Shown: positions 4,573 to 27,968 of the stretch, one piece after another
Numbering within the stretch: the stretch's first letter is position 1
Layout: every line of letters begins with the position of its first letter
NCBI GenBank assembly: GCA_943789065.1
Contig: CALSSQ010000001.1
Span: 188,619-252,618, forward strand
Direction: 5' to 3'
DNA: 64,000 bases
Source: an uncultured Candidatus Actinomarinales bacterium
GTDB lineage: Bacteria > Actinomycetota > Acidimicrobiia > Actinomarinales > Actinomarinaceae
Position numbers and translations under genes: made by a program
Notes under the pieces: generated by a model
What the model was told of the DNA's origin: nothing
The model's database searches: none
The model's input: only the letters and a program-made list of their open reading frames with translations

Positions 4573-7500
4573 ATGATATATCAAATTATTGGTTCAATTT
4601 TCTTCGTTCCTAAGTTCTTTAGGGGAATATTTAGCGTGTACACATTAAAAAAATTACTGTCTGTAACACTATCTTTTTTAATGCTTGTATCCATTTCCTA
4701 TACATTTATTGAGACAGTAGACCCAGAACCTGCTTATGCTTCATCACAATTTGCCTGTTTTGATAATAATGGAAGACCAATTGGGTATAGAATCACTGCA
4801 AGTGACAATGATAATCGTTTGACTATTCAACAATTTCGCCACGATGGCTCTCAGTACACTTACTCATCAAGTAATAACTACTATACAAATTTCCAAAGCT
4901 CTGTCTGGGGTTCTACCAAGGTTACTGCTGCCATGATGGACACTAAAGGAAACTTATGGGCTGTAGCAAGAAACGGTGGTCCAGATCTTGTATATATCGA
5001 TAAAAATACTGGTAACGGTACTGTCGTTATGTATAACTTAGCAAACTCTGGGGCCTGGGATGGTGCGGGATATTTCGAACATAATGGTTATGAATTTCTA
5101 GGGTTTGGTAAAGGCATGATGGGAAGTGGTCAATTAATCGAAATTACTGGGTCTAATTTGACTAGTTCCAGCTCATATGACGAATGGAATTTTTCAAGCA
5201 ATCAAATCAGCATGGTTTCAGCTCTTAAAGATACTGAAGATTTTGCGTGGATAGAGGACCCAAGTGGACTTCCTACTTATAGTGGTGTTTCACCAAAAAT
5301 TATTGGATACAACAACGATCGACAACAGGTTGTATTAGGTTACGTTACATCATTTAATGCTTCTACTCAGTCTATGACTATGACCTTCACAGATACCTCT
5401 GTTTCAAAACCAAGTGATTGGACGACTAATAATGCATCACAAGTAATGGGCTTTGGAGGTTCTGAAATATATATATTACATAACAATAATGGTGAAGTTC
5501 GAAAGCTAAGTTATTCTTCTGGTTCTTGGAGTTGGTCAGCTCAACTGGGTGCAGACATGGGAAGCACATCAAATGTTGATGCAGCAGCATGTCATGGAGG
5601 ATCACCGACAACTACTTTTAATCCTACTGTTACTGCTACTCAAGGTTCATGTGATGGAACAAACAGAGAAATTGACATAACCTTAAATAACACAAGTTCA
5701 AATAAGGCCGTCACTTTTTATACTTCATACACTATTAATGGTGGAAGTTCAACAAACTTATCAACACAACAAGTAAACTCAGCTAGTACAAACACCTCAC
5801 TTACAATACCTGGACAAACAAATGGAGCTAATGTTGTAATTTCGTGGTATGCAGAATACACAACTGAAAATCTTCGAGAACCTACAAGTAGCACAACATC
5901 ACTCTCGACTATTACAATAGATGCCTCTTCTTGTTCCTCTACACCTACATCTAAGAGTTCCTCATCATCAATTAGCGCAGCTTTTGGATCATGTTCCTCT
6001 GGTAGTGCAACATCAACTCTTACAATTACAAATTCTGCCTCGTCGACTGTGTACTATTATGTTGATTATTCTATTAACGGTGGAACCTATGTAAATGCTT
6101 CTACAAACTTATCAGTTTCAGCAGGTGCAACTAATACAAGTTTGAGTACTTCAGTTAGTCATGGTCAAAATATTACTTGGAGATTTAAAGCCTCTGATAT
6201 AAATAACGATTTCACTGGATTAAATTATTCAACACTTACAACAAGCAGTAATCTTGACTGTCCCGTAATTGATACAACTGGAGCTTCCTCTTTTGGATCT
6301 TGTGCTGCAGGTTCTAAAACATCTACTTTCACAATGTCTAACTCTAGTTCTGCAAATACTGCTGCTTTCTTTAGAGTCCAATATTCTATTAATGGTGGTA
6401 GTTTCCAAAATGCAGTAACAAACCAAAGTGTTGGTATAAACTCCTCAGAGACTACATCAGTTTCTGTACCTCACGGCTCTACTATTCAGTGGCAGTATGA
6501 AATCTCCAATACTTCTAATACTTTCACTGGCACATATACACAGGAATCTACCTCTTCTGCCGTTGACTGTCCAACAATAGATATTTCTGCATCACAATCT
6601 CTTGGCAGTTGTTCAGCTGGTTCATCAACTTCAACTTTAACTCTAAGCAACTCTAATTCTGCCAATTCTACAGCTTATTTTTATGTTGAGTATTCAATTG
6701 ATGGAGGTTCAAACTGGAATGAGAAAGCATCAAATCAATCTGTAGTACAAAATGGTTCTGAATCATTAACACAATCTGTTGCACATGGAACTGCAATAAC
6801 ATGGCGATATAAGTCATCCTATACATCTGGTTCATTTACAGGAGATTTCACAACACTATCAGAAAGCGCTACTGTTGACTGTCCAGTTTTAGACACTTCT
6901 GTATCTTCTTCACTTGGTAGTTGTGGTTCAGGAATTGCTTTATCAACATTTATAATTAATAATTCAAGTTCAGCGAATACAACTGCATATTTTCAAGTCG
7001 AGTATAAATTGAGTTCTGAATCTTCATATACAAGCGTAGCCTCTAATCAAGCAGTTTCTCCAGATGGTACGACATCCTTCAATAAGGCAGTGCCACATGG
7101 AGAAAATATTACATGGCAATATAGAACTTCATCAACTAGTAATTCTTTTTCTGGTAGCTATAGTTTTGGTGGAACTAGTGCGATAGTTGATTGTCCCGTG
7201 TTAGCAACTTCTGTTTCTTCCTCTTTTGGATCTTGTTCTGCTGGATCTAAAACTTCAACCTTTACAATGTCTAACTCCAGTTCTGCAAACGTTGCAGCAT
7301 ACTTTAGAGTCCAATATTCTATTGATGGTGGAGATTTTGTAACATCTACATTAAACAATCAAGTAGCAATTGATTCCAGCAGTACAGTATCAGCAACAGT
7401 ACCTCACGGCTCTACTATTCAGTGGCAGTATGAAATCTCCAATACTTCTAATACTTTCACTGGCACATATACACAGGAATCTACCTCTTCTGCCGTTGAC

Positions 7501-8436
7501 TGTCCTGTAATTGATACAACTGGAGCTTCCTCTTTTGGATCTTGTGCTGCAGGTTCTAAAACATCTACTTTCACAATGTCTAACTCTAGTTCTGCAAATA
7601 CTGCTGCTTTCTTTAGAGTCCAATATTCTATTAATGGTGGTAGTTTCCAAAATGCAGTAACAAACCAAAGTGTTGGTATAAACTCCTCAGAGACTACATC
7701 AGTTTCTGTACCTCACGGCTCTACTATTCAGTGGCAGTATGAAATCTCCAATACTTCTAATACTTTCACTGGCACATATACACAGGAATCTACCTCTTCT
7801 GCCGTTGACTGTCCAATTTATGCTGTTGTTGCCTCGCATTCAGTTACAAACTGTACCAATAATGGTGATAGCCAAGGTGGAACCGAGGGAAGAATTGTTC
7901 TAAGCATTGATAACAGTGGAAGCAATGCTGATATAACACTTTTAATTCAAAAGAGAAGTACGAATGCTGTTAGTGGAAATGTAGGAGATTGGGATTATTT
8001 TAACACAGACATTACAGGAGGATCCTCAGGGACTTCTATTTCAGCAGGAGTTGCTGAAACAACTTTCAGACTTGATGACATTGCAACAGGTACGGGTATA
8101 GAGCATAGATATTCCATTGATGGCGGAAGTACATGGACAGAAGTAGGCTCAAAACTTACCGTCTCCTGTGTTAGCGTAACTACTAGTCTTGGTAGTTGTT
8201 CTTCTGAACTTACCCAAACCCCTACAATCACATTGAACTCTGGCGCGGATGCCACTTCAAATGTATTTTTTAGAGTTGAGTATTCAATTGATGGAGGAAG
8301 TACATGGACAGAATCGGAAAATGATTTAGAGGTTGCTATTGATTCATCTCAAACTTTAACTGGGCCGGCACTTGCCGATGGTGAATCTATAGACTGGAGA
8401 TACAGTTCAAGAAAAGCTTCTGGTTCGCACAGATAG
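4573..8436 (+). CDS. Cys-bounded repeat surface protein, cassette 2 (N-terminal part; probable start GTG at 4636; +1 frameshift near 8428 joins it to 8441-10435)
   Basis: Signal peptide ending PAYA|S, a ~280-aa Cys-flanked tip domain, then nine ~100-aa repeats (ninth split by the frameshift). AGGGGA at 4621-4626 precedes GTG 4636. Confidence 0.85.
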   Translation: MIYQIIGSIFFVPKFFRGIFSVYTLKKLLSVTLSFLMLVSISYTFIETVDPEPAYASSQFACFDNNGRPIGYRITASDNDNRLTIQQFRHDGSQYTYSSSNNYYTNFQSSVWGSTKVTAAMMDTKGNLWAVARNGGPDLVYIDKNTGNGTVVMYNLANSGAWDGAGYFEHNGYEFLGFGKGMMGSGQLIEITGSNLTSSSSYDEWNFSSNQISMVSALKDTEDFAWIEDPSGLPTYSGVSPKIIGYNNDRQQVVLGYVTSFNASTQSMTMTFTDTSVSKPSDWTTNNASQVMGFGGSEIYILHNNNGEVRKLSYSSGSWSWSAQLGADMGSTSNVDAAACHGGSPTTTFNPTVTATQGSCDGTNREIDITLNNTSSNKAVTFYTSYTINGGSSTNLSTQQVNSASTNTSLTIPGQTNGANVVISWYAEYTTENLREPTSSTTSLSTITIDASSCSSTPTSKSSSSSISAAFGSCSSGSATSTLTITNSASSTVYYYVDYSINGGTYVNASTNLSVSAGATNTSLSTSVSHGQNITWRFKASDINNDFTGLNYSTLTTSSNLDCPVIDTTGASSFGSCAAGSKTSTFTMSNSSSANTAAFFRVQYSINGGSFQNAVTNQSVGINSSETTSVSVPHGSTIQWQYEISNTSNTFTGTYTQESTSSAVDCPTIDISASQSLGSCSAGSSTSTLTLSNSNSANSTAYFYVEYSIDGGSNWNEKASNQSVVQNGSESLTQSVAHGTAITWRYKSSYTSGSFTGDFTTLSESATVDCPVLDTSVSSSLGSCGSGIALSTFIINNSSSANTTAYFQVEYKLSSESSYTSVASNQAVSPDGTTSFNKAVPHGENITWQYRTSSTSNSFSGSYSFGGTSAIVDCPVLATSVSSSFGSCSAGSKTSTFTMSNSSSANVAAYFRVQYSIDGGDFVTSTLNNQVAIDSSSTVSATVPHGSTIQWQYEISNTSNTFTGTYTQESTSSAVDCPVIDTTGASSFGSCAAGSKTSTFTMSNSSSANTAAFFRVQYSINGGSFQNAVTNQSVGINSSETTSVSVPHGSTIQWQYEISNTSNTFTGTYTQESTSSAVDCPIYAVVASHSVTNCTNNGDSQGGTEGRIVLSIDNSGSNADITLLIQKRSTNAVSGNVGDWDYFNTDITGGSSGTSISAGVAETTFRLDDIATGTGIEHRYSIDGGSTWTEVGSKLTVSCVSVTTSLGSCSSELTQTPTITLNSGADATSNVFFRVEYSIDGGSTWTESENDLEVAIDSSQTLTGPALADGESIDWRYSSRKASGSHR
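6265..6574 (+). repeat. 310-bp exact intragenic duplication, copy 1 (copy 2 at 7507-7816)
   Basis: Base-by-base identical to 7507-7816; offset 1242 nt = 414 codons; one full repeat domain. Confidence 0.95.
7399..7505 (+). repeat. Third exact copy of the 3' 107 bp of the duplicated repeat
   Basis: gtacctcacggctct...gccgttgactgtcc is identical to 6466-6572 and to the matching part of 7507-7816. Confidence 0.9.
7507..7816 (+). repeat. 310-bp exact intragenic duplication, copy 2
   Basis: Identical to 6265-6574. Confidence 0.95.
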
Positions 8437-8440
8437 CAGT

Positions 8441-16724: not shown

Positions 16725-19700
16725 ATGAAAATTAATTTCTTAATTAGTTATTTAAAAGTAAGGTCTTATATTAACTCGTCGACTTTTAGAAATACACTCA
16801 AAGGAACGACCTATGCAGCCTTGTTTTTAATGGTGTTGATCTCTTCATGGGCTGTGCCCCAAGAAGAGGCATATGCAAGTGACAACTGGGAGTGTAACGA
16901 TGCATTTGCACGAGCATACTTTTACAAACTAGATTGGGATTATGCATCTTCAAATTTCACTATTGACCAATATGTAGCTACTGAGACTTCAACTATTCAA
17001 CGACAAACAACAACCGTAGATTTTAGTTCTACTTCCAATATTGCAGGAACAGTAAAAGGTATCAATGCATTAGCGATGTCACCAACAGGCGTTATGTATG
17101 TAACGATAACTTCTGATGGACATGGCACGCACCTCTTTAGTATTAGTACCGCTGGAGTGCTAACTCCTGTTGCCCACATAGCAAATTATGGAGAAGTTGG
17201 TGATGAGAATTTTTACGACGGTGTAAACGGTTATTACGGTTTTTCAGCTGGTGAGTATATTGTCAATAGAAATGGTAACGACCAAATCTATATGGCTCAG
17301 GCTGGATTCAAGCACGGTTATATTTTTAATGTAGACACTCAATCTGTGACAACCTTTTCAGATCCTGGTATGACCAACCATATTAATTCAGCAGACTTTG
17401 CTTATATCGATGATTGGGATGGATACGAGATTGGAACTTACAATGCTCTTGCAAACAAAGTTATTCTCTATGATAAAGATAATAACTCTCTTGTTCAAGT
17501 CACACCTACCAATGCCGCTTATTCAAATGTCTCCGCAACACTTGCTAGCTACAGCTATAAAACTCCGGAAGGAGAGATTAGATTTATTATTGATGATGGT
17601 CTGGGTAACCGTTTTGAAGTAAAAAGAACTGGAAGTAATCAGTACAATGTTCAATTAAAGGGATCAACATTTAATAGCGATAACTCAGATGGTGCCTCTT
17701 GTGGCCCAAATGCGTATGATCCATTTTCTCCAACATTTAAAACCTCTTTAGGGGAGTGTGTTGTTGGATATCAACAACCAACCCTCATAATTACTAACAA
17801 CAAGCAGACAACACAATATTTTGATATTGACTATCGCATAGCTGGTGGAACTTGGACAGAGCTATTAAATGGAACACAGATATCACCAGGTGGTCAATTT
17901 ACAACATCCGGTGAAGGTGGTGTTCATATAGGACAAACGACTGAGTACAGAATGCGATACGATGCGTCGAATCCATCTAGTGGAACTTTTTACATTGTTG
18001 GAGATCTCTTAACAGGTCAAGACTGTGGAGGATATGCTGCTGGAAGTGTTGCTACATCAGCAGGTTCCTGTAGTAGTGGTTCTTCAACACCCTCAGTTAC
18101 ATTAACAAGTACGGGTTCTGTGAATGCCTTTTTTGATGTGCAATATAAAATAGATTCAGGAGCGTGGATCACCTTTATTGACGGAGAAGAAGTCCTAGCC
18201 GGGTCACCGGAAACATTTAGCGTACCATCTAGCGTTACCCATGGAAGTACTGTATATTTTCAATACATAGTTTCCAACTCAAATTCATCATCAACTTTTA
18301 CTTCAGCAGATAGCGTGACTATAACTTGTAATATATATACGGGTACTATTACTGCTACAACAAATGGAACATGTATTACTGATTACCTTGAGTACTCTGT
18401 CACTGTTACTAACACCGGTAATACAGAAATGTATTTTGCTTTAACACAACCATCACAAGCACGAGCTGTCTCATCCGTAGTGTGGAAGGAGCAATCTCGT
18501 TTAATTAGTGCTGGCGCAACGCATACGTACACTTCAAAAGTTTATAAGGGAGTTATTCCAGAATTTAAAATGGTGTACGGTACAGTCAACGCAGTTTACC
18601 AAGTAACAGATTTGCACAACCCTTCAAACACTGAAGGTTCGTTCGTCAACCACCAGAACTATGGAGCGAATTTAAAATCAGGAAATTCCTGGATTCGATG
18701 GACTGCTAATAGTGCTGTAGATTGTAATTACTGGGGAACTGGTGGTAGTAGTACAAATAACAGTAATAACTACTTACTTATATCTCAAAGCACTTCTCAG
18801 ACATGTGATAGCTCAGGAAACGCAACGGCAAGCATTACTCTAACAAATTTTGATTCACCAAATGACGTTTACGGAGGGTTCCTTGATGTAGAGTACTCTG
18901 GAAATAATGTAACGTGGACGTCGTTAGCAGATGGGGTCGTGCTCGCAGATGGAGCAACATTAACAATCTCTTCACCACAAGCTTTATCCAGTGGTAGTAC
19001 GGCATATTTTAGATATAGAATTGCTGAGACAAACCCAAGTGATTCAACACCTAATGCTTCGTGGGCTACTTTTTCACAAAGTATCGATTGTGTACCTAAT
19101 TTTACAATTGCACAGAGTGTTTCCGCTTGTGATGCTGGGGAAAAATACTCAACCCTAAGTGTTACAAACGGTAGTTCAGAAACTCTTTATTTTCGAGCTA
19201 CTCCTTCAAAACTAAGTGCCAACGGTACCGAATCAAGCACATCTAATTATGATTCTGCAGAGTCAATTTATTTTTCCGTCAATGCCGGAGAGACATTAAC
19301 ATATGATGTTTCCAGCAGTCCTGAAATGAGAAGACTCTACAACCAGTATGAAGGGTATATCTATTGGAGAGTACAAGCCTCTTTTGTTCAGTTGGCATCA
19401 ACTGGTACAGCTTGGAGTAATACAACCACATATCCATATTCGTATACTGATGCAATACAGCACGACTGTATACCAGATGTATTTGCAATTTTTGACCTAG
19501 CAGCATGTACTTTAGAGGGAAGAGATTCTACATTCACAATTACAAATAACGAATCTGTAACTATCTATGTTTATGTGAATCCATCTGACGCAAATGATCA
19601 GACTATTAACCAAGTTACTCTTTATGACACAGATAATGACTATACAGCTGTTGCTATTGCACCGGGAGAAACGTATACTCAAACAAAGTTTTATCCTGTG

Positions 19701-22700
19701 AATTTTACTGACAGGTATACAAAATGGAGATACAAAACTTCTTTTGTAGAACCCACAACTTGGGATCCTCTGACTTGGAATAACGCAACTAACCCAACTT
19801 CTACAGCTGACAATGGATATTGGAGTTGTGAATTTTCAACTAGTTATACCTATAATAAGGGGCCTGATACAGAGGGAACTTATGGCGGGCTAGCACGCTC
19901 CTGCAGAGATGGAGCAACGTCTGTTACATATAGGTTTCAACAAAGACAAGGAGAAGGTCAAGTAAATGACTTTATGGATCTATGGTATGTTTTTGAAGTC
20001 TCTAATGACGATGGTCAGACATGGTCACATGAAAATTTGTATCACACACCTGGAACCCCGTCATCAACTTCGGTACCTTATGCCTCCGATAGTTCAAGTT
20101 TTGTAGGATGGAATGCGGTTCAAGGAATAAATAATTACCAGTATCAAGACCTTAATGATTGGGCTGACAGTAGTGGTGGTAATGGTACATGGCGAGGTTT
20201 TACTATCGGCGCAAGAATCCAACATGGAGATACACAAATATTTAGATTTAAAATTGCATTTTCTGAAGATGAGCTATCAGTAACAGATTGGCGGCAATTT
20301 AACAACACACAAAATAGTGAAGGCGTTACCGCCGATTGTACACCAGTACCATTTACAGTAACATACAACAATACTGTTTACTACAATTTAACCACTGATG
20401 AGAATGGTAATCAGATAATTGATACTGAAGGTACTCCTGAGAATTTGATTACTTTAGGTGAGTGTCAGTTTAGTGTTGAAAATGGCACATCTAAACAATT
20501 TAATTTTGAATATAGGGTTGTGTCTGATGATGAAGACATTAATTTGTTTGAATCAAGAGATGGTGGCGCAACATGGGCAGCTGTAAGCACTTCTTTAGCT
20601 TCTCGAACGTACACATACACCACAAACCTTTTAAATAATGAAACAATAATGTTAAAAATTGAACATTACATCGAAGGTGAAGAGGAGTATAAAAATACAT
20701 ATTATACAAATCAATTCACACCAGATTGTCCAATAGTTGCTGCTTCAGGCTTTGCTGCTTCATATGCAGTTTGTGATACTGATGGTGCACCAATAAGTTT
20801 TTCTATTGGAAATACTGGCTTTGCAACTATGTATCTTCATGTTCAATATTCAACAGATTTAGGATCAACGTGGAATGAAGGTATCTATGATGCTGCAAAT
20901 AATAATGCTATTCAATACAACATGATATTTCCAGATGAGACAGAAACTTTTAACCTAACAGATAAAGTTTCACACGGGACAACAGTAATTATTCGCTACA
21001 GAGTAGCTCAAACTTCTCCTGTTACAAGTGGTTCATTTACGAATAGTGACATGCTTGTTGTTGATTGCGAAGCTGACGTGACCGTAACAAGTATTACTAA
21101 TTATTTTTCCACCTATTGTTTTGACCCAGAGGTACGAATTAACTTTGATACGAGTGACTTGAGTGGAACTCAAACTGTGTATCTCTTTCTAAAAATAGAT
21201 GTTAACGGTGAAGGCTATTCTGAAAATTGGAATACAAGAACTTGGACTAGAGCAAATGGCACGAATTTAAGTTTAACTAATTCAGATTTTCCAGATCAAA
21301 ATTTCCTAAGCGGAGATGTTGTAACAGTAAAGTATAAGATTGGAAAATCTGCTACTGATTCTTATGCTCAAGAAACTGTAAGTTCTCCTCTAACAATTTC
21401 TTGCGGAGATGTATCAAACGTCGCTCAAGGTTCAGCCAGCTATGTTTCTTGTAGTGCTTCCGGTCCAGATAAATTGGAGTTTAAATTTGCAAGAGTTTCT
21501 TCAGAAAGATTATCGTCTTCCTCTGTAGACCGTCGGGTTATTCAAATAAAGGCTGAAATATCTCATGATGGAGTAACTTGGCATCCATTTAGTGGTTCTC
21601 AATATGCGTCATGGAATCTTTTTTGGAGTCGAGTGGCAAACGGAAGCGATGCCAACCGAAACGATTCATATTTCGGTGCATTTACTCCTGACTATTATTT
21701 TATATCTAACGGCAATTATATCGCTGGGGTAATGCTGGTTGACTCTAATCATGAATATAAAATCAGATACTCTACAAAACATGTAATTAACAACAACAGC
21801 AACATCTCTAATTTTATAGGGACTGGTGAGTATGGTAACTCCACTGTTATCACAGTCCCTGCAAATGCAGATTGTGATCAAAATGATATCAACAAGGTAA
21901 CTTTCTCTTCTTCAAACCAAGTATGTATAGAAAATAAAGGCAAAATTGGAGTTACCTTTAGAGACATCGTCACAACTCATGAACAACCTTACAAAGAAGC
22001 TGCTCTACTTGTTGAGTATTCTCTAGATGGCGGTAACAGTTGGCAACAAACTAATAATAAATTGAACTATTTAGAAGATGAAGAAATTTTTTATATACCT
22101 AATACAGATGTTTCCCATGGTCAAACAATACAGGTTAGATATGGATATATTCGAAATCATGGTTTTACCCACCCTATCTATGGGTCGACAAATGCCAAAG
22201 AAGCTCAATTCGCTTACTATGGTGGTCTAACTAGTGATGGTGATTATTACCATCGAGTTAAGTCCAATTCAACATTTCATGAAACTTTTAATGAGAAGGT
22301 GTTAGTAGAAACTTTATCACTAGTTGTAGACTGTGATCCAGATTCTACTTACGACGAAAGTTTAACAACATGTGAGTGCGATGACTTAGGTGCTACCTCT
22401 ACATTATCAATAACAAATAATGAAGACTACACAACTTTTTACAAGGTGCAGTACTCCCTCGATGGAGGTGTGACTTGGCAATCAGCCACTGACTCCTTAG
22501 AATCTGCGTTTGATATTTCTGTAGCGGCGGGTGGTACTAATGACGATCTTCAAGTGTTCGTTCCAGACGGGCAAACAATTAAATGGAGAGTAAAGGATAC
22601 AAATAATGGTGGCGATTTTGTTGGTCGAGATTGGGAGGAAGTAACTGAAAGCTCACAAGTAGATTGTGGTTGTGGTGGAGGGTCTGTCACAGTAGATGTT

Positions 22701-25700
22701 GCACTTGGTACTTGTGGAAATGGAAGCTCCACACCAGTCATTTCTCTTGTCCCATCAAGTACGGATACAGCTTATTTTACAATTGAATATAAGAGATCAA
22801 CTGACTCTACATGGCAGACATTTAAAACTGGTGAAATTGTAAGTAATGGCACTTCAGAGAACCATCCATTAGAAGTAACAGTACCTCATGGAGCAACTAT
22901 TCAGGTTCGATATAAAGTAAGTAAAGTATTAGATGATTTGAGTACAAAAGAGTGGGTTAATGTTGAAGAAAAAACTATCAATTGTCCATTTACATTAGTT
23001 ACTGGAGTAGCATCGTATTCTGCCTGTACAGATAATTATAAATTAGCACGTTTCACAGTGACGAATACCAGCTCATCTACAGCTGCAGCTAAGTTCAATG
23101 TTGAATATAAAATTCTCAACGCTTCTTCTACAGTTATTGACTGGACCGCTTCATCTGTCATGAATTCAACTATTGCACCTGGTGTTACACTCCAAACATC
23201 AAACACTATACAGGTTCAAGAGGGACAGAAAATTATTTGGAGATATGAGTCTGTTGATTCTTCAGAAGATTTCACTGGTGTATGGATAGAAGATACCTCT
23301 AGCGAGTATGTCAACTGTGTTATTGATGTGGCAGTAACATTTACAATGGATGCTTGTGATGCAGGATCACAACTCTCTACATTAAGTGTAGAAAATAAAG
23401 AATCATTAAATACTGTGTATTTCCAAGTTCAGTACTCAACTGATGGCGGAGTTAACTGGACAATGAAAAATCCAAATCTAGCTGTTGAGCCAGATGCAAC
23501 TGATTCTTCACTGCAAGTCAATGTTGTGCATACTCAAAATATTATTTGGAGATATCTCGTTAGTGAAACAAATAACAATTTTGAAGGATTAGAGTACACA
23601 ACACTTGAAGCCTCCTCAACTGTTGATTGCCCAGTCTTAGATGGAATAGGTACGGCGAGCTTAGATGTTTGTAATGGTGGTCAAAGAAGATCTACATTTA
23701 CATATTCAAACTCATCTTCAGCAAATGCTCCAGCATACTTTTACATACAATACAATTTGAGTAGTGACAGTGAGGAGTGGATAACAAAGGTTTCTGGAAA
23801 TGTATTGACAGCTGGCGTTTCATCGTCAACATATGTAGTTGTACCAAATGGTAATACTATAACGTGGAGATACTATCCAATGAGTTCCCCTACAGAACCA
23901 ACAACATGGATAAATCTAGCTACTAGTGAGGAAGTTGATTGCGCACTTGATACAGTTGTAACTCATTCTTTAGACTCCTGTGTTGATGATGAAGCAATAT
24001 CGCGCTATTCATTGTCAAATAACACTAATGACACTTTGTATTACCAGGTTGAATATTTCATAGAAGGTAGTTCAGGATATGTTGTAGCAGATACAGATTT
24101 AACTCTTGGAGGAGTTGGTACGCAAACACAATCTTATGAATTTAGCCAGTCTGTTGCAAACGGAAAATTTATTAGATGGCGTTATAAAGCCTCAACTACG
24201 CTTTCTGGATTAAGTACAGCAATTTATGTAGACTACTTGCAATCATCAACTATTGACTGTACAAAAATAGATCCATTAGTAACAACTTCGAATACTGTTT
24301 GCTACAACAACACTAAAGAAGTTACATTTTTGATCAAAAACGGTACAGTGGCAAATACTAACGCTCTCTTCAAAGTTCAAGTAAACATCAATGGAACGGG
24401 ATGGGTAGATAAGCAAGACATTATTTTAGGTGTAAATGGTCAGTTTCCACATTCTCAAGTAGTGACTTCTGGAAACACTATTCAGTGGAGATATAAAGTT
24501 GCAAAGGTAGGAGATGTATTACCATCGCAATGGACTGAAGAAGAAGTAATTAGTATCTCTTGTTCTACAGCTGAAGATATTACTGTAACTATTGATGCAA
24601 ATTGTGATGCAAACGGTTATAAGAATACTCAATTGAACATCAATAATTCAGGATCAACTACATTATATTACAAAGCAGAGTACTCAGTAGACGGAGGAGT
24701 AAATTGGATACTCTCAGCTAACCAGGTTCTCGTAATTGCTGGTGGTTCAACGTATTTACCAGAGGCCGTTCTGGATGGGCAAACAATTACTTGGAGATAT
24801 AAGATTTCAAGTACTGGTGGTGATTTCTCAACGATAAATTGGATTACATCTAATACATCAGAAATTGTAAATTGTTCTGGTGTCAATATCTCTACACCTT
24901 ATACGTCAATTGGACAATGTGTAAGTGGGTCAAAGTCTTCACGATTTTACTATGGAACTCTTTCATCTAGCCCTGCTCCAGCGTACTATCACATTCAATA
25001 CAGAATTGATGGGGGAACTTGGACAGATAAAGTCACTTCCTCAAATGGGATAGTCGTAGGAGGAGTGAACACAAGTACTTCACAATCTGTAACATCTGGT
25101 TCATCAATTGAGTGGAGATATAAAGCTTCTTACAGCACCGCTGCGTTAGCAAATATTAGTTTTACTCCTTTAGCTGGTGGAGCAGTTGAAGTAGATTGCG
25201 GTACATTTATCTCAGCAGTCCACCAAATGGGAACCTGTACTAATCAGACTGCAACATCTACATTAACTTTAAATAACACAGGCTCTACACCACTACTTGT
25301 AACAGTACATTCAGCAATGAATTCAGGGGACTGGTCAACAGAGGTTTCAACAGTTGAGATAACTGCAGGTAACCAGTTAACACTAACTAGATCAGTTATT
25401 AATGGCCAAACTATTAGTTGGAAGTATAAATATGCTGGTACAGTTACAAAGCTTGCTTCCTCTTCTGAAACAATTTTTGGCTCAATACCAGCACTTGATT
25501 GTGAGACTGAAGTATTAAATCAAGTCTCTATCAACAATGTCCTAAAAGCTTGTGTTGCAGGAAATAGGGTTTCTGAACTAACGCTTACAAACAACTCTTC
25601 TGATACAGTTTATGTAGAAGCATGGTATGACATAGGAAATGGCTGGATAACTAAAGGTACATCTGTAGTAATTAATGGCACTCCGAAAGTTCTTGAAGCT

Positions 25701-27968
25701 CCTGGCGCACCCCATGGAGCAACTGTTAAATGGAGATATCGTTTAGGTCTTTCTAGCACTATGTCTAATGATTACACAACTCTTACAGCCCTTACTGTTG
25801 ATTGTCCACAAACTTCCACAGTGACACAAACCCTTGATGCATGTTCTAATCAGACTCGAGATTCTAGACTATCTATTAGTAATACTGGAACTACAACTCA
25901 GTATTACAAAGTTGAATACTCCGTTAATAATGGTGGGTATCAATATATGACCACTGTAAGCGTTCCCGCCGGCCAACTTAATAACTCAGTTTATAAAAAT
26001 TTAACTTCTGGGCAGTATATTACTTGGAGGTACGCACCAAGTACAGTCCAAAATGACTTCTCAAATGCATCATATATATACTTGACTAGAACGGAGACCG
26101 TTGATTGTACCTCTGCAAACTTGACCGCTACTCAAAGTTCTACCTGTACTGCAAATGGAGCAATATCTACAAAGAGTTCAACTTTCACAATTTCAAATGG
26201 TTCTGCAAATACCGCTCAGGTAGAAGTCCAATCTACAACAAATAATATTTCCTGGACTTCAATGGGTACGCAGACAATTACAAGTTCTCAGCCTTATGTT
26301 GCGAATAACATCTTGACTACAAATTACATAATTTATAGATACCGAATCTTCAATGCAGCAACTCCAAATACCTGGCAACAAGTTGTAGTAATGGCGCCTG
26401 CTGATTGTGCGACAACGATAACTCCTACCACTGTAAGTGCATACAATACTAATGAATGTATAAACGGTAGTCCGGCTGCTAAATTAACAATCATCAATCC
26501 TAACTCAACTGCAGTAGTGGTGAGCTATGACATATCTATTAATGGGGGTACATTCCAGTCTGTAGGAAACTCTTCAGTCACAGGTAGTTTTGTTACCAGT
26601 GCTTATAGTGTTCCAGCAAATTCTTCATTCCAATGGAGGTACAAGACTTCTACAGATACTGCCTATAAATTTGTCTCCGCAACAGCTGAAATCTGTTCTC
26701 AAGCCAGTTTATTGAGTGGTTATACTCAAATAGGTTGTGATCTCGATAGTAATGGATCGCTAGAGTCTTCAAAGGCAAAATTAGTAATTATAAACACCGG
26801 AGCTCAGAATGTTTCTGTTATGTATGATTACAAGTTAAATAATGGTCAGTATCAGTCAGGGTCGGTAATTTCTGTTAACGCAAACTCTTCACTAGCAACT
26901 GTAGAAGTTCCTTTAGTATCTACAGATCAAATTGTCTTTAGGTATAAGATTACAAGTGATACTGCCTATCAATTTACACCTGAAAAATCCGGTATAGATT
27001 GTGGAAGCACTCCTAATAATCCTCAAATGATATTAACTCTTGATGAATGCTCTGCAAATGTTGCAAAGTCAACAATTGAGATTCGTAATTTGAGCAATGA
27101 AGTTAAAAGCTTTTATGTCGAATACAGAATAGATGATGGCCCATGGACAAATTATGATTTAGTAACCATCAATCCTACGAGTGGAACAACTAGATTCTTG
27201 AATATTACTCAAAACCAAAAAATTCAATGGAGAGCTTTAGATAGTACATATACACAGTTTGCTACTTCTTCTCCTTATCAGATATCGAATGCCGAGACAG
27301 CTATCTGTGAAACAACTACTACAACTACACTTCCACCAGTGACATATATTTTTGAACCACTCGTCTCAACAAACAGAGTCTGTGATGAGGAAAATGGTGG
27401 AGCTATGTTTGGTATCACGGTCGATAACTCAAGATCTAATGTTAGAGCAGATATCTTAAAAAAGATTTGGATCAATCAAACATTAATTGCTGAAGAAACT
27501 TTAACAGTTGGTCCTGGTCAAACTGTTGACTTTTCCTCAATTGAGGTTGGAGAGAATAAGTTCTTTACAGTCGCACTAGAGGTCACCAATACTGAAAATG
27601 GAAAAGTTCAGAAAATGATTAAAAACAAGGATGCAGATTGCATAGAAGAAGATGACTTCGCTATTACTGATCCGATAAATCCAGTTATTGAGATTATTGA
27701 AGAAACAGGAATAGATAATGTTATTAATGGCTCTGGAGATAATGAAGAAAAGGAAGATAATGGTGAATCAATCAATTTCCTTCCTGGTGATGATTTTGTA
27801 GAGTTTGTTTACAATGAGGATGCTGAAGATATAACTACCGACCCAATAGAGGCAACACCTCCGAAGCTTCCTGTAACTGGTAGTAATATTGGAGGACTAA
27901 TAATATCTTTTGGCTTATTACTAATTGCAGGTGGGGCTTTCCTCCTAAGGAAGGCATATAGATTCTGA
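16725..27968 (+). CDS. Giant (~3,750 aa) sortase-anchored surface protein with about 28 Cys-bounded repeats and LPVTG sorting signal
   Basis: Uninterrupted 11.2-kb ORF (ATG 16725; the track starts at TTG 16716). Signal peptide ending EAYA|S, LPVTG at 27867-27881, TM, RKAYRF tail. Repeat count is by hand. Confidence 0.92.
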   Translation: MKINFLISYLKVRSYINSSTFRNTLKGTTYAALFLMVLISSWAVPQEEAYASDNWECNDAFARAYFYKLDWDYASSNFTIDQYVATETSTIQRQTTTVDFSSTSNIAGTVKGINALAMSPTGVMYVTITSDGHGTHLFSISTAGVLTPVAHIANYGEVGDENFYDGVNGYYGFSAGEYIVNRNGNDQIYMAQAGFKHGYIFNVDTQSVTTFSDPGMTNHINSADFAYIDDWDGYEIGTYNALANKVILYDKDNNSLVQVTPTNAAYSNVSATLASYSYKTPEGEIRFIIDDGLGNRFEVKRTGSNQYNVQLKGSTFNSDNSDGASCGPNAYDPFSPTFKTSLGECVVGYQQPTLIITNNKQTTQYFDIDYRIAGGTWTELLNGTQISPGGQFTTSGEGGVHIGQTTEYRMRYDASNPSSGTFYIVGDLLTGQDCGGYAAGSVATSAGSCSSGSSTPSVTLTSTGSVNAFFDVQYKIDSGAWITFIDGEEVLAGSPETFSVPSSVTHGSTVYFQYIVSNSNSSSTFTSADSVTITCNIYTGTITATTNGTCITDYLEYSVTVTNTGNTEMYFALTQPSQARAVSSVVWKEQSRLISAGATHTYTSKVYKGVIPEFKMVYGTVNAVYQVTDLHNPSNTEGSFVNHQNYGANLKSGNSWIRWTANSAVDCNYWGTGGSSTNNSNNYLLISQSTSQTCDSSGNATASITLTNFDSPNDVYGGFLDVEYSGNNVTWTSLADGVVLADGATLTISSPQALSSGSTAYFRYRIAETNPSDSTPNASWATFSQSIDCVPNFTIAQSVSACDAGEKYSTLSVTNGSSETLYFRATPSKLSANGTESSTSNYDSAESIYFSVNAGETLTYDVSSSPEMRRLYNQYEGYIYWRVQASFVQLASTGTAWSNTTTYPYSYTDAIQHDCIPDVFAIFDLAACTLEGRDSTFTITNNESVTIYVYVNPSDANDQTINQVTLYDTDNDYTAVAIAPGETYTQTKFYPVNFTDRYTKWRYKTSFVEPTTWDPLTWNNATNPTSTADNGYWSCEFSTSYTYNKGPDTEGTYGGLARSCRDGATSVTYRFQQRQGEGQVNDFMDLWYVFEVSNDDGQTWSHENLYHTPGTPSSTSVPYASDSSSFVGWNAVQGINNYQYQDLNDWADSSGGNGTWRGFTIGARIQHGDTQIFRFKIAFSEDELSVTDWRQFNNTQNSEGVTADCTPVPFTVTYNNTVYYNLTTDENGNQIIDTEGTPENLITLGECQFSVENGTSKQFNFEYRVVSDDEDINLFESRDGGATWAAVSTSLASRTYTYTTNLLNNETIMLKIEHYIEGEEEYKNTYYTNQFTPDCPIVAASGFAASYAVCDTDGAPISFSIGNTGFATMYLHVQYSTDLGSTWNEGIYDAANNNAIQYNMIFPDETETFNLTDKVSHGTTVIIRYRVAQTSPVTSGSFTNSDMLVVDCEADVTVTSITNYFSTYCFDPEVRINFDTSDLSGTQTVYLFLKIDVNGEGYSENWNTRTWTRANGTNLSLTNSDFPDQNFLSGDVVTVKYKIGKSATDSYAQETVSSPLTISCGDVSNVAQGSASYVSCSASGPDKLEFKFARVSSERLSSSSVDRRVIQIKAEISHDGVTWHPFSGSQYASWNLFWSRVANGSDANRNDSYFGAFTPDYYFISNGNYIAGVMLVDSNHEYKIRYSTKHVINNNSNISNFIGTGEYGNSTVITVPANADCDQNDINKVTFSSSNQVCIENKGKIGVTFRDIVTTHEQPYKEAALLVEYSLDGGNSWQQTNNKLNYLEDEEIFYIPNTDVSHGQTIQVRYGYIRNHGFTHPIYGSTNAKEAQFAYYGGLTSDGDYYHRVKSNSTFHETFNEKVLVETLSLVVDCDPDSTYDESLTTCECDDLGATSTLSITNNEDYTTFYKVQYSLDGGVTWQSATDSLESAFDISVAAGGTNDDLQVFVPDGQTIKWRVKDTNNGGDFVGRDWEEVTESSQVDCGCGGGSVTVDVALGTCGNGSSTPVISLVPSSTDTAYFTIEYKRSTDSTWQTFKTGEIVSNGTSENHPLEVTVPHGATIQVRYKVSKVLDDLSTKEWVNVEEKTINCPFTLVTGVASYSACTDNYKLARFTVTNTSSSTAAAKFNVEYKILNASSTVIDWTASSVMNSTIAPGVTLQTSNTIQVQEGQKIIWRYESVDSSEDFTGVWIEDTSSEYVNCVIDVAVTFTMDACDAGSQLSTLSVENKESLNTVYFQVQYSTDGGVNWTMKNPNLAVEPDATDSSLQVNVVHTQNIIWRYLVSETNNNFEGLEYTTLEASSTVDCPVLDGIGTASLDVCNGGQRRSTFTYSNSSSANAPAYFYIQYNLSSDSEEWITKVSGNVLTAGVSSSTYVVVPNGNTITWRYYPMSSPTEPTTWINLATSEEVDCALDTVVTHSLDSCVDDEAISRYSLSNNTNDTLYYQVEYFIEGSSGYVVADTDLTLGGVGTQTQSYEFSQSVANGKFIRWRYKASTTLSGLSTAIYVDYLQSSTIDCTKIDPLVTTSNTVCYNNTKEVTFLIKNGTVANTNALFKVQVNINGTGWVDKQDIILGVNGQFPHSQVVTSGNTIQWRYKVAKVGDVLPSQWTEEEVISISCSTAEDITVTIDANCDANGYKNTQLNINNSGSTTLYYKAEYSVDGGVNWILSANQVLVIAGGSTYLPEAVLDGQTITWRYKISSTGGDFSTINWITSNTSEIVNCSGVNISTPYTSIGQCVSGSKSSRFYYGTLSSSPAPAYYHIQYRIDGGTWTDKVTSSNGIVVGGVNTSTSQSVTSGSSIEWRYKASYSTAALANISFTPLAGGAVEVDCGTFISAVHQMGTCTNQTATSTLTLNNTGSTPLLVTVHSAMNSGDWSTEVSTVEITAGNQLTLTRSVINGQTISWKYKYAGTVTKLASSSETIFGSIPALDCETEVLNQVSINNVLKACVAGNRVSELTLTNNSSDTVYVEAWYDIGNGWITKGTSVVINGTPKVLEAPGAPHGATVKWRYRLGLSSTMSNDYTTLTALTVDCPQTSTVTQTLDACSNQTRDSRLSISNTGTTTQYYKVEYSVNNGGYQYMTTVSVPAGQLNNSVYKNLTSGQYITWRYAPSTVQNDFSNASYIYLTRTETVDCTSANLTATQSSTCTANGAISTKSSTFTISNGSANTAQVEVQSTTNNISWTSMGTQTITSSQPYVANNILTTNYIIYRYRIFNAATPNTWQQVVVMAPADCATTITPTTVSAYNTNECINGSPAAKLTIINPNSTAVVVSYDISINGGTFQSVGNSSVTGSFVTSAYSVPANSSFQWRYKTSTDTAYKFVSATAEICSQASLLSGYTQIGCDLDSNGSLESSKAKLVIINTGAQNVSVMYDYKLNNGQYQSGSVISVNANSSLATVEVPLVSTDQIVFRYKITSDTAYQFTPEKSGIDCGSTPNNPQMILTLDECSANVAKSTIEIRNLSNEVKSFYVEYRIDDGPWTNYDLVTINPTSGTTRFLNITQNQKIQWRALDSTYTQFATSSPYQISNAETAICETTTTTTLPPVTYIFEPLVSTNRVCDEENGGAMFGITVDNSRSNVRADILKKIWINQTLIAEETLTVGPGQTVDFSSIEVGENKFFTVALEVTNTENGKVQKMIKNKDADCIEEDDFAITDPINPVIEIIEETGIDNVINGSGDNEEKEDNGESINFLPGDDFVEFVYNEDAEDITTDPIEATPPKLPVTGSNIGGLIISFGLLLIAGGAFLLRKAYRF

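What the first reader, a model, noticed from the sequence alone, without database searches (positions are those of the whole stretch)
16725..27968. 3,750-aa sortase substrate built from an apparently unnamed disulfide-linked ~100-aa repeat
Seen: about 28 repeats by hand count (plus 9 and at least 5 in the other two genes), with consensus C-x10-15-C-x4-6-S(T)xT(I/L)xN-x6-10-Y(F/Y)xV(E/Q)Y(S)xDGGxxW-x20-VxHGxT(I)xWRY-x18-22-V(D/N)C. Inference: Ig/Fn3-like beta-sandwiches stapled by two Cys each, forming a fibre possibly on the order of 100 nm. That is a large investment (11 kb) if the host is the tiny streamlined cell suggested by the core genes.
Basis: partly seen in the sequence, partly recalled or inferred. 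Interest (0 to 1): 0.7.

Follow-up and report, generated by a model that had tools for sequence, protein, structure and literature searches.

The report
Giant disulfide-stapled surface fibre of Actinomarina
One 11.2-kb gene of a tiny marine actinobacterium (Candidatus Actinomarina) encodes a wall-anchored fibre made of a propeller-shaped head on 29 bead-like domains. Each domain is probably pinned by one disulfide bond, the domain type has no name in Pfam or NCBIfam, and the domain number is kept constant between species.

Summary
ORF 16725..27968 (+) encodes 3,747 aa and ends in LPVTG, a hydrophobic helix and RKAYRF. A sortase gene overlaps its stop codon. Between residues 330 and 3642 lie 29 cysteine-delimited units of 96-170 aa. 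A repeat HMM recovers 27 of them, plus 10 and at least 5 in two paralogous genes.

No Pfam or NCBIfam domain covers the unit. Only the 12-position Asp-box motif (PF02012) passes its cutoff. AlphaFold2 gives a confident seven-strand Fn3/Ig-like sandwich (pLDDT 91.8). The strand order, an extra C-x-C...C-x-C pair in unit 13, and complete cysteine bookkeeping (31 pairs from 62 Cys) all point to one intradomain disulfide per unit.

Residues 55-329 fold as a roughly six-bladed beta-propeller head.

Orthologues in Ca. Actinomarina genomes are 3,736-3,761 aa at 56-73% identity, and all have exactly 62 Cys. The head is conserved (76-92%), while mid-stalk units fall to 22-35%.

Best reading: a fixed-length, roughly 100-130 nm sortase-anchored fibrillar adhesin with a new stalk-domain family. 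The ligand and the disulfides are inferred, not shown.

The parts
16012..16626 (+). TetR-family regulator gene directly upstream of the giant gene
   Evidence: Pfam TetR_N E 2.2e-07. The same position is occupied in two orthologous loci.
16725..27968 (+). Giant surface-protein gene (3,747 aa from the ATG; the ORF is open from a TTG at 16716)
   Evidence: Identical to the 3,747-aa protein P0152. A 9.3-kb contig with no gaps covers it in each of four independent runs.
16725..16877 (+). Predicted signal peptide: basic n-region, hydrophobic core TTYAALFLMVLISSWAV, AYA|S cleavage site
   Evidence: Read from the translation. No predictor was run.
16878..17702 (+). N-terminal head, aa 55-329: roughly six-bladed beta-propeller, bracketed by C60 and C329
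   Evidence: AF2 pLDDT 84, pTM 0.86, 21 strands. Foldseek matches PknD sensor domain, Pizza6 and NHL propellers at E about 1e-5, TM 0.43-0.50. No Pfam hit. It is the most conserved part, 76-92% among clade-1 orthologues.
17703..27641 (+). Stalk: 29 Cys-delimited units R01-R29 (aa 330-3642), each a seven-strand beta-sandwich
19092..22334 (+). Mid-stalk units R05-R12: enlarged (112-170 aa) and hypervariable between orthologues
   Evidence: Per-unit identity to 56-64% orthologues is 22-54% here, against 52-93% in R13-R29. The Cys columns are still conserved.
22335..22673 (+). Unit R13 with doubled cysteines (C1886-x-C1888 ... C1984-x-C1986), the best conserved stalk unit
   Evidence: The C-x-C is conserved in orthologues and in fragment P0021. 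Identity is 66-89%.
27642..27866 (+). Acidic, Pro-containing pre-anchor linker (aa 3643-3717) with a motif shared by the three cassettes (FLPGDDFVEFVYNEDAED in the giant; NDFFEWD.../NDFFVWD... in A and B)
   Evidence: Translations.
27867..27965 (+). Cell-wall sorting signal: LPVTG, 22-residue hydrophobic stretch, RKAYRF
   Evidence: TIGR01167 scores 13.6 bits, below its 15.9 cutoff. Orthologues carry [LFIY][PAG]xTG.
27968..29629 (+). Dedicated sortase. Its start overlaps the giant gene's stop by one base, and it carries a RecA_C-like segment in its N-terminal part.
   Evidence: Pfam Sortase 1.4e-27 and RecA_C 2.7e-16. The best NCBIfam match is class E sortase, 109 bits, below the 160 cutoff.
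1..2590 (+). Paralogous substrate gene of cassette A. It is 5'-truncated by the window, has at least 7 repeat units, and ends in IAATG + TM + RRRRG. It is split here by one extra base at 1606.
   Evidence: The intact relative P0004 is 1,661 aa.
4573..10435 (+). Paralogous substrate of cassette B (about 11 units, LAATG + TM + RKK), continuing without a stop into a sortase domain. It is split here by one extra base at 8432.
   Evidence: Intact fused relatives are P0180 (2,087 aa) and P0010 (1,471 aa).

Best explanation
The gene encodes a sortase-anchored fibrillar surface protein of fixed length.

Export and folding. The protein is exported by a Sec-type signal peptide. It then folds oxidatively outside the membrane into a roughly six-bladed beta-propeller head (aa 55-329) and 29 Fn3/Ig-like sandwiches. 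The ring closure of the head is stapled by C60-C329.

Disulfide per unit. In each stalk unit, one disulfide joins the Cys just after strand A (HMM position 15) to the unit's last residue (position 102). About 88 of roughly 100 residues are therefore covalently closed, and only strand A and the disulfide carry load. Unit 13 has two such bonds.

Anchoring. The sortase encoded immediately downstream would cleave LPVTG and join the Thr to peptidoglycan. The head would then stand about 100-130 nm from the wall of a cell roughly 300 nm across.

Function. The head most likely binds a conserved ligand on particles, polymers or other cells, which makes the protein an adhesin or tether. The mid-stalk (R05-R12) is free to diverge or is driven to.

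What is shown: the repeat anatomy, the sorting signal, the adjacent sortase, the predicted folds, and the invariance of Cys and domain number across orthologues.

What is inferred: disulfide formation and pairing, anchoring, fibre length, and above all the binding function and ligand.
For: Anatomy and sorting signal.

Sortase next door. The same arrangement is syntenic in two other genomes (thrC-TetR-giant-sortase-528 aa-271 aa-SBF-rho).

Folds: the tandem stalk model has pLDDT 91.8 with strands A-B-C-C'-E-F-G. Foldseek matches tandem Fn3-like domains. The head model has pLDDT 84 and pTM 0.86, and matches six-bladed propellers such as the PknD sensor domain.

Disulfide pairing:
- In the model, the two close Cys (7/20 and 111/125) flank a straight 7-residue strand A, so they cannot meet. 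Cys20 (A-B turn) and Cys111 (after strand G) lie at the same end of the sandwich.
- The extra pair in R13 sits at +2 from both partners and is conserved.
- The scheme C60-C329, plus 29 intradomain pairs, plus one extra pair accounts for all 62 Cys.

Constraint across orthologues: 19 orthologues of 3,736-3,761 aa at 56-73% identity all have 62 Cys. 59 of 62 Cys columns are invariant down to 35% identity, and unit lengths R13-R24 are identical in all eight clade-1 orthologues of the 12-sequence alignment, but for two one-residue differences in P0170.

The head is conserved at or above the level of housekeeping neighbours: 86% against 81% for Rho and SBF.

Presence in the sea: near-identical sequence occurs in at least 20 marine metagenome runs and in 4 metatranscriptome runs of one study.

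Background: Actinobacteria fold exported proteins oxidatively with MdbA (PMC9974433, PMC5478893). The fibrillar-adhesin definition is from PMC8286594.
Against: No ligand, adhesive-domain family or binding site is identified. The head has no Pfam hit, and propellers can also be enzymes or sensors.

The Cys are almost invariant, so covariation could not test the pairing.

The organism is described as a free-living planktonic oligotroph (PMC7771536), for which attachment is not an obvious need.

The LPXTG anchor HMMs score below their cutoffs.

The metatranscriptome evidence consists of contigs from one study, without strand information, so DNA carry-over is not excluded.
Confidence: 0.6

Rival explanations
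1. The fibre is a passive spacer or protective coat, a fixed-length 'fur'. It would keep phages, grazers or surfaces at a distance, or change the hydrodynamic or encounter radius of the cell. The head would have no specific ligand.
For: Domain number and length are invariant, as expected if length itself is selected. The mid-stalk is hypervariable and mosaic between strains: P0155 is 90-95% identical in R24-R29 but 23-47% in R05-R08 and R10-R12, as seen for surfaces exposed to phages. The host is planktonic, and its main flexible island also concerns the envelope (PMC7771536).
Against: The distal head is the most conserved part, 76-92% in clade 1 and about 50% even in the 35% clade. That conservation argues for a specific function at the tip. 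Copy number per cell is unknown.
Confidence: 0.2
2. The fibre is a nutrient-capture or enzyme-display device. The propeller head would be a hydrolase or a polymer- or solute-binding module, held out on a stalk to harvest dissolved or colloidal organic matter.
For: Six-bladed propellers include enzymes, and paraoxonase appears among the Foldseek hits at E 6e-5. Weak sub-threshold CBM_56 and F5/8-type-C hits occur in single units.
Against: No catalytic motif or enzyme family is detected, and all the CBM-like hits are below cutoff. The best structural matches are sensor or lectin-type and designed propellers, with TM of only 0.43-0.50.
Confidence: 0.12
3. The repeat is not a new family. It would be a strongly diverged member of a named one: fn3, or an Asp-box-bearing Ig-like domain such as CHB_HEX_C or Reelin subrepeat B.
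For: The topology is seven-strand Fn3-like. The repeat profile picks up fn3-rich proteins weakly: P0034 and P0050 score 11-17 bits per domain. CHB_HEX_C has a summed score of 26.5 against a 23.6 cutoff, and Reelin_subrepeat-B scores 23.8 against 27.
Against: The CHB_HEX_C and Reelin matches cover only the Asp-box hairpin, 18 of 76 and 55 of 127 profile positions. fn3 itself never appears among the hits to the protein. Asp-boxes are known to recur in unrelated folds (own knowledge: Copley, Russell and Ponting 2001).
Confidence: 0.15
4. The protein is a pilin-like subunit polymerised by its sortase into a longer pilus, rather than a single anchored fibre.
For: A dedicated sortase sits beside each substrate gene.
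Against: There is no YPKN-type pilin motif and no E-box. The sortases match class E better than class C, 109-122 against 77-100 bits. There is one substrate per cassette and no minor pilins.
Confidence: 0.03

Closest known systems
Sortase-anchored fibrillar adhesins of Gram-positive bacteria (class defined by Monzon et al. 2021, PMC8286594; PMC9210967)
   Same: Signal peptide, distal non-repeat head, long stalk of tandem beta-sandwich domains, C-terminal LPXTG-type sorting signal, and an adjacent sortase.
   Different: The stalk domain matches none of the named stalk families. The head matches no named adhesive domain. Stabilisation would be by one disulfide per domain, not by isopeptide bonds or Ca2+. 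The host is a free-living 1.1-Mb marine oligotroph, not a host-associated Firmicute.
Periscope proteins and Rib/SasG-type variable-length stalks (own knowledge: Whelan et al. 2021)
   Same: A rod of tandem Ig-like domains projects an N-terminal functional region from a sortase anchor.
   Different: Periscope stalks have near-identical DNA repeats whose number varies between strains. Here the repeats are 21% identical on average, there is no DNA-level repeat, and the number is invariant across orthologues down to 56% identity. Cassette B, by contrast, does have five 309-bp DNA repeats.
Disulfide-containing actinobacterial pilins and surface proteins folded by MdbA/VKOR (PMC9974433, PMC5478893)
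   Same: Actinobacterial, sortase-handled, Ig-like domains whose stability depends on extracytoplasmic disulfides.
   Different: Those are short pilins polymerised by class C sortases, with one or two disulfides in total. This is one 3,747-aa chain with 31 predicted disulfides and no pilin motif.
Giant RTX adhesins of marine Gram-negative bacteria, e.g. Marinomonas primoryensis ice-binding adhesin MpIBP (own knowledge)
   Same: A marine bacterium invests in a fibre of at least 100 nm made of tandem Ig-like extender domains, with the ligand-binding part at the far end.
   Different: MpIBP is exported by a type I system, rigidified by Ca2+, and built from about 120 nearly identical repeats, with its binding domains at the C-terminus. 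The protein here is Sec-exported and sortase-anchored, cysteine-stapled, and built from divergent repeats with an N-terminal head.
BNR/Asp-box motif (Pfam PF02012) and Asp-box-bearing sandwiches (CHB_HEX_C PF03174, Reelin subrepeat B PF21471)
   Same: S-x-D-x-G-x-x-W hairpin between strands C and C'. PF02012 scores 33 bits against a 27 cutoff, and the motif is strict in 7 of 29 units.
   Different: Only the hairpin is shared. The rest of those profiles is not matched.
PknD extracellular sensor domain / NHL-type six-bladed beta-propellers (PDB 1RWI)
   Same: The predicted fold of the head.
   Different: Sequence identity is 10-14% and TM only 0.42-0.51. There is no Pfam NHL hit. The head is closed by a predicted disulfide and mounted on a stalk.

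Membership tests
LPXTG-type sortase substrate | N-terminal secretion signal | tested here: met
   Basic n-region, hydrophobic core and AYA|S site read from the translation. No predictor was run.
LPXTG-type sortase substrate | C-terminal LPXTG-like motif, then a hydrophobic stretch, then a basic tail at the very end | tested here: met
   LPVTG at aa 3718, a 22-residue hydrophobic stretch, then RKAYRF and the stop. Orthologues keep [LFIY][PAG]xTG.
LPXTG-type sortase substrate | Match to curated anchor HMMs (TIGR01167, PF00746) | tested here: not met
   TIGR01167 scores 13.6 bits against a 15.9 cutoff. NF058582 scores 16.9 against 27. PF00746 scores 12 against 20. The motif-level features hold, but the HMM scores are sub-threshold.
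LPXTG-type sortase substrate | A sortase is available, and cleavage or anchoring is demonstrated | tested here: inconclusive
   The sortase gene overlaps the stop codon (Pfam Sortase 1.4e-27; TIGR01076 68.9 against 39.35). Processing itself cannot be tested with these tools.
Fibrillar adhesin (PMC8286594) | Multiple tandem stalk domains forming an elongated rod | tested here: met
   29 units. The AF2 tandem sandwich model has pLDDT 91.8.
Fibrillar adhesin (PMC8286594) | At least one adhesive (ligand-binding) domain | tested here: inconclusive
   A propeller head is predicted. It has no match to any named adhesive family and no binding data.
Fibrillar adhesin (PMC8286594) | Cell-surface anchor | tested here: met
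   Sorting signal plus an adjacent sortase.
Pfam BNR/Asp-box (PF02012) | S-x-D-x-G-x-T-W hairpin motif scoring above the gathering cutoff | tested here: met
   33 bits against 27 for the whole protein. Strict in 7 of 29 units, shortened or degenerate in the rest. This is a motif, not a domain family.
Pfam fn3 / bacterial Ig-like families (Big_x, CARDB, Cna_B, DUF11 and others) | Domain-level HMM match above cutoff | tested here: not met
   None is listed for the whole protein, for 21 single units or for the consensus. Big_14 scores 13.6 bits against 27.
Pfam CHB_HEX_C (PF03174) / Reelin_subrepeat-B (PF21471) | Match over most of the profile | tested here: not met
   CHB_HEX_C has a summed score of 26.5 (cutoff 23.6), but no single stretch passes, and the best covers profile positions 35-52 of 76. 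Reelin-B scores 23.8 against 27 and covers positions 51-105 of 127, in unit R12 only.
Periscope / variable-number repeat stalk proteins | Highly identical tandem repeats with strain-to-strain variation in number | tested here: not met
   No DNA tandem repeat within 16725-27968. Mean repeat identity is 21%. Orthologue length is 3,736-3,761 aa and all have 62 Cys.
Sortase-polymerised pilin | Pilin motif (YPKN Lys), E-box, class C sortase | tested here: not met
   No such motif is present. The sortase matches class E better than class C, and both are below the subfamily cutoffs.

The most novel reading that the evidence does not exclude
The protein is a molecular ruler with two tasks. An exactly 29-domain, disulfide-locked and therefore essentially inextensible stalk holds a conserved propeller receptor at a selected distance of about 100-130 nm, roughly 40% of the diameter of one of the smallest free-living cells. 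A replaceable mid-stalk segment (R05-R12) is exchanged by recombination under pressure from phages or grazers. If so, the hydrodynamic, encounter and capture radius of Ca. Actinomarina is set by protein fibrils rather than by the cell body. The Cys-stapled unit would then be a disulfide counterpart of the isopeptide 'clamp' of Gram-positive pilins.
Probability: 0.2. Interest if true: 0.75.

Novelty: new variant of a known kind. Interest (0 to 1): 0.5.

Why it matters
Ca. Actinomarina has a genome of about 1.1 Mb with a mean gene length of 900 bp (PMC7771536). It still keeps an 11.2-kb gene, about 1% of the genome, at a fixed chromosomal position, with invariant domain and cysteine counts. This genome also carries two further paralogous cassettes. 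In a lineage shaped by streamlining, such an investment implies a strong selective benefit that current descriptions of these 'free-living planktonic' cells do not include. I found no paper mentioning both Actinomarina and sortase.

The stalk unit is a compact, confidently predicted domain absent from Pfam and NCBIfam. It has only about 100 clear relatives among 1.84 billion representative proteins, so it is a candidate new family.

The one-disulfide-per-domain design makes a clear, testable mechanical prediction: short unfolding steps when oxidised and long ones when reduced.

Tried and rejected
The genome could therefore not be searched for MdbA/DsbA/VKOR, for further copies of the repeat, or for its size.
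- The search for related loci with repeat alignments A2 and A4 failed because no stretch was conserved enough. A single-protein query (head + R01-R02) then worked.
- Cys covariation across 1,099 domain instances could not assign the disulfides, because both Cys are almost never missing. The extra-Cys tabulation only re-found the R13 C-x-C.
- Model coordinates are not exposed, so the pairing rests on strand topology rather than distances.
- Foldseek of the tandem model gives only generic tandem Fn3/Ig-like hits (transglutaminase C-terminal barrels, Ihog, cytokine receptors; TM 0.3-0.38). No specific structural family emerged.
- Long proteins low in the representative list (P0034, P0050, P0068, P0123) turned out to be fn3 or DUF11-like repeat proteins scoring only 11-17 bits per domain. 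I do not count them as family members.
- The TetR-giant intergenic region has no convincing operator palindrome.
- Literature searches for Actinomarina with sortase, giant protein or LPXTG found nothing.
- Reading the metatranscriptome contigs as proof of expression was rejected. They have the same contig boundaries and similar depth ratios as the DNA runs, and they carry no strand information.
Full report
**What is there**

The window has one uninterrupted frame from 16716 to 27968 on the + strand. From the ATG at 16725 it encodes 3,747 aa, the length of a 100%-identical database protein, P0152. In the residue numbering used here, residue 1 is the TTG at 16716.

The N-terminus has a basic stretch, a hydrophobic core (TTYAALFLMVLISSWAV) and AYA|S, which I read as a signal peptide. 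The C-terminus is LPVTG (aa 3718), 22 hydrophobic residues and RKAYRF. The next ORF (27968..29629) starts on the last base of the stop codon and has a sortase domain: Pfam E 1.4e-27, TIGR01076 68.9 bits against a 39.35 cutoff, best subfamily class E. A TetR-family gene lies directly upstream.

The mature protein is about 399 kDa with pI 4.4. Thr, Ser and Asn together make up 31% of it.

**The repeat**

The 62 cysteines come in strictly periodic pairs, C-x12-16-C and then about 85-90 residues. Cutting at the first Cys of each pair gives 29 units between aa 330 and 3642. Twenty-one of them are 96-113 aa. Eight (R03-R08, R11, R12) are 120-170 aa because of insertions.

An HMM built from the 21 compact units finds 27 domains in this protein, with per-domain E-values down to 9e-31. 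It also finds 10 in ORF 4573..8436, 5 in the 5'-truncated ORF 1..1626 and 2-3 in 1433..2587.

The repeats are ancient. Mean pairwise identity is 21%, and Tandem Repeats Finder sees nothing inside the gene. It does see five 309-bp copies in the paralogue at 6254-7815.

**Is the repeat named?**

At the domain level it is not.

- Pfam on the whole protein lists only five families. BNR/Asp-box scores 33 bits against a 27 cutoff. CHB_HEX_C has a summed 26.5 bits, but no single stretch passes, and the best covers profile positions 35-52 of 76. Reelin_subrepeat-B scores 23.8 against 27. The last two hits are noise-level.
- Scanning 21 units separately gives a scatter of sub-threshold beta-sandwich families, with no family hit by more than 3 units.
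- The HMM consensus does no better: DUF6385 scores 19.9 against 26.8 and CBM_56 scores 17.1 against 27.
- NCBIfam has nothing for the repeat.
- A profile search of all PDB sequences gives E 0.004 at best.

It is strict in 7 of 29 units and shortened in most others.

**Fold**

AlphaFold2 on a two-unit construct (aa 2195-2413), using 22 tandem pairs as the alignment, gives pLDDT 91.8. Each unit has seven strands in the order A, B, C, C', E, F and a short G, with the Asp-box forming the C-C' hairpin. Foldseek against the PDB returns tandem Fn3-like or Ig-like pairs: transglutaminase C-terminal barrels, Ihog FnIII and cytokine receptors, at E about 1e-6 to 1e-4 and TM 0.3-0.38. This is a generic fold assignment, not a specific family.

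**Disulfide assignment (inferred)**

Coordinates are not exposed, so I argue from topology.

- In both units of the model, the two nearby Cys flank a straight 7-residue strand A: Cys7 - A(11-17) - Cys20, and Cys111 - A(116-122) - Cys125. They are therefore too far apart to bond. The Cys after strand A and the last residue of the unit lie at the same end of a seven-strand sandwich.
- Unit R13 has an extra Cys two residues after each partner (C1886-x-C1888 and C1984-x-C1986). These two can only pair with each other across the unit. This puts positions 15 and 102 next to each other. The C-x-C is conserved in all orthologues and in fragment P0021.
- With C60-C329 bracketing the head, 29 intradomain pairs and the extra pair, all 62 Cys are used. 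The alternative short-range pairing leaves C60 and C3642 unpaired.

Covariation could not add to this, because both Cys are present in 618 of the 619 domain instances that cover both positions.

**Head**

Residues 52-332 were aligned with orthologues and with the heads of paralogous proteins, then modelled. The result has pLDDT 84 and pTM 0.86, with 21 strands grouped as five four-strand blades. A sixth blade is made of the three N-terminal strands plus the C-terminal strand. Foldseek finds six-bladed propellers: Pizza6, the PknD extracellular sensor domain, NHL domains and PLL lectins, at E about 1e-5 and TM 0.43-0.50. C60 and C329 sit at the two ends of the ring and would staple its closure. 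No Pfam family matches.

**Relatives and constraint**

A word-indexed search of 5.8 billion proteins returns 28 relatives besides the identical protein.

- Nineteen full-length proteins are 3,628-3,761 aa at 56-73% identity. Eighteen of them fall within 3,736-3,761 aa.
- A second clade has five proteins of 3,658-3,672 aa at 35-36% identity.
- Apart from P0167 (61) and P0169 (63), every full-length clade-1 protein has exactly 62 Cys.

In a 12-sequence alignment, 59 of 62 Cys columns are invariant. The 35% clade lacks one unit (R26/R27). Unit lengths R13-R24 are identical in all eight clade-1 orthologues aligned, but for two one-residue differences in P0170. The array is therefore positionally orthologous and its number is held constant, the opposite of the variable-number 'periscope' stalks.

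Conservation is uneven:

| Region | Identity |
|---|---|
| Head | 76-92% |
| R13 | 66-89% |
| R29 | 51-94% |
| R06-R08, R10-R12 | 22-35% against the 56-64% orthologues |

The pattern is mosaic. P0155 is 90-95% identical in R24-R29 but 23-47% in R05-R08 and R10-R12. Against one genome (L001), the neighbours Rho and SBF are 81% identical, the sortase 66%, the TetR 51% and the giant 56% overall.

Synteny (thrC-TetR-giant-sortase-528 aa-271 aa-SBF-rho, with whiB nearby) is kept in assemblies GCA_902593325.1 and GCA_902550185.1.

**Organism and abundance**

A scan of GTDB species genomes finds the head plus R01-R02 at 74-78% identity in four genomes titled Candidatus Actinomarina sp. and one titled Acidimicrobiaceae bacterium. 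It also finds a 100% match on a 9.8-kb contig of a MAG labelled Gammaproteobacteria, which is probably misbinned. Earlier notes of this scan also call this genome Ca. Actinomarina.

Such genomes are about 1.1 Mb with about 1,180 genes of mean length 900 bp (PMC7771536). This gene is therefore about 1% of the genome.

At least 20 marine metagenome runs from at least 8 studies hold 95% or more of the sampled words of the gene. Four metatranscriptome runs of one study hold 98-100%. These are contigs without strand information, and their depth is comparable to the DNA runs, so I treat them only as consistent with transcription.

**How wide is the family?**

A profile of 29 units was scored against 1.84 billion representative proteins. 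It gives 315 hits at E <= 1e-3, 108 at <= 1e-10 and 32 at <= 1e-30. Of the 141 retrieved proteins that my local HMM also matches, 80 contain at least one near-full-length unit. Most are fragments of the three Actinomarina-type cassettes.

A few show other architectures: an IF2_N-like N-terminus, a TM helix, a Thr-rich stalk, one unit and a C-terminal domain (P0049, P0115, P0144). One is a GARP-rich LPRTG-anchored protein (P0063), probably from a high-GC actinobacterium; that origin is an inference from composition.

Long low-ranking hits are fn3 or DUF11-type proteins at 11-17 bits per domain, and I do not count them as members. All names on record are 'hypothetical protein'.

**Mechanism**

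The anatomy, the sorting signal, the adjacent sortase, the predicted folds and the evolutionary constraint are shown. The following steps are inferred:

1. Sec export.
2. Oxidative folding into 31 disulfides.
3. Sortase cleavage at LPVTG and linkage to peptidoglycan.
4. A rod of 29 units at 3.5-4.4 nm each plus a head, about 100-130 nm long. This compares with a cell about 0.3 µm across (cell volume from my own recollection of Ghai et al. 2013).
5. Ligand binding by the head.

The position-15-to-102 disulfide would shield about 88 of 100 residues from force. This is functionally analogous to the isopeptide clamps of Gram-positive pilins (own knowledge) and makes the rod nearly inextensible.

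The protein fits the definition of a fibrillar adhesin (PMC8286594), except that the adhesive function of the head is unproven. The rivals are a passive spacer or anti-phage coat, a nutrient-capture or enzyme display device, a remote fn3 member, and a pilin.

**Verdict**

This is a new stalk-domain family and a fixed-length, cysteine-stapled variant of a known kind of protein. Four earlier follow-ups of this scan on orthologous genes in other genomes reached the same general picture. I treat them as agreement, not as independent evidence.

New here are the exact conservation of Cys and domain number, the hypervariable and mosaic mid-stalk, the R13 argument for the pairing, the size of the family, and the finding that the window's frameshifts in the paralogous cassettes are specific to this assembly.

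Noticed in passing
window 1606, 8432 and 30618-30621: Contigs from four independent marine runs lack one base at 1606, one at 8432 and two at 30618-30621 relative to the window. The splits of cassette-A substrate (1..1626 / 1463..2590), cassette-B substrate (4573..8436 / 8441..10435) and the membrane-protein gene (29629..30666 / 30606..31253) are therefore specific to this assembly, either as errors or as a strain variant. Intact versions exist elsewhere: P0004 at 1,661 aa, P0180 at 2,087 aa, and the 528-aa gene in L001.
   Followed up: partly
window 4573-10435: The cassette-B substrate runs through its own sorting signal (LAATG + TM + RKK) without a stop into a sortase domain. The same fusion is one intact ORF in other assemblies (P0180 at 2,087 aa, P0010 at 1,471 aa). 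Another note of this scan already covers it.
   Followed up: partly
window 28205-28375 (sortase ORF 27968..29629, aa 83-137): The N-terminal, presumably cytoplasmic, part of the giant gene's sortase matches the RecA C-terminal domain (Pfam E 2.7e-16). The same pair of domains is annotated in both orthologous loci, L001 and L002.
   Followed up: no
window 12595-12848: A perfect 27-bp tandem repeat of 9.4 copies (100% matches) lies in the Thr-rich stalk of ORF 12510..13433.
   Followed up: no
L003 (PAEL01000058.1, 9.8-kb contig): A 100%-identical copy of the head-encoding part of the giant gene lies in a MAG titled 'Gammaproteobacteria bacterium MED855'. All other relatives are in Ca. Actinomarina or Acidimicrobiia genomes, so this contig looks misbinned.
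   Followed up: no
window 13643-15820 (-), and proteins P0049, P0115, P0144: One group of proteins has an IF2_N-like N-terminus, a TM helix, Thr-rich spacers, a single copy of the Cys-stapled unit and a conserved C-terminal domain. The window's 725-aa minus-strand protein shares the IF2_N-like start but carries SBBP beta-propeller repeats instead of the unit.
   Followed up: no
window 19092-22334 (units R05-R12): Allelic mosaicism: orthologue P0155 is 90-95% identical to the window protein in R24-R29, but only 23-47% in R05-R08 and R10-R12. This suggests recombinational replacement of the mid-stalk.
   Followed up: partly
database proteins P0007, P0008, P0016, P0020, P0025: Several fragmentary relatives end or begin in peptides such as AVSYTHLTLPTICSV, CLLYTSPSPRDQRGSRMPSSA and MCIRDR. 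From my own knowledge these look like translated sequencing-adapter sequence at contig ends, not real protein.
   Followed up: no
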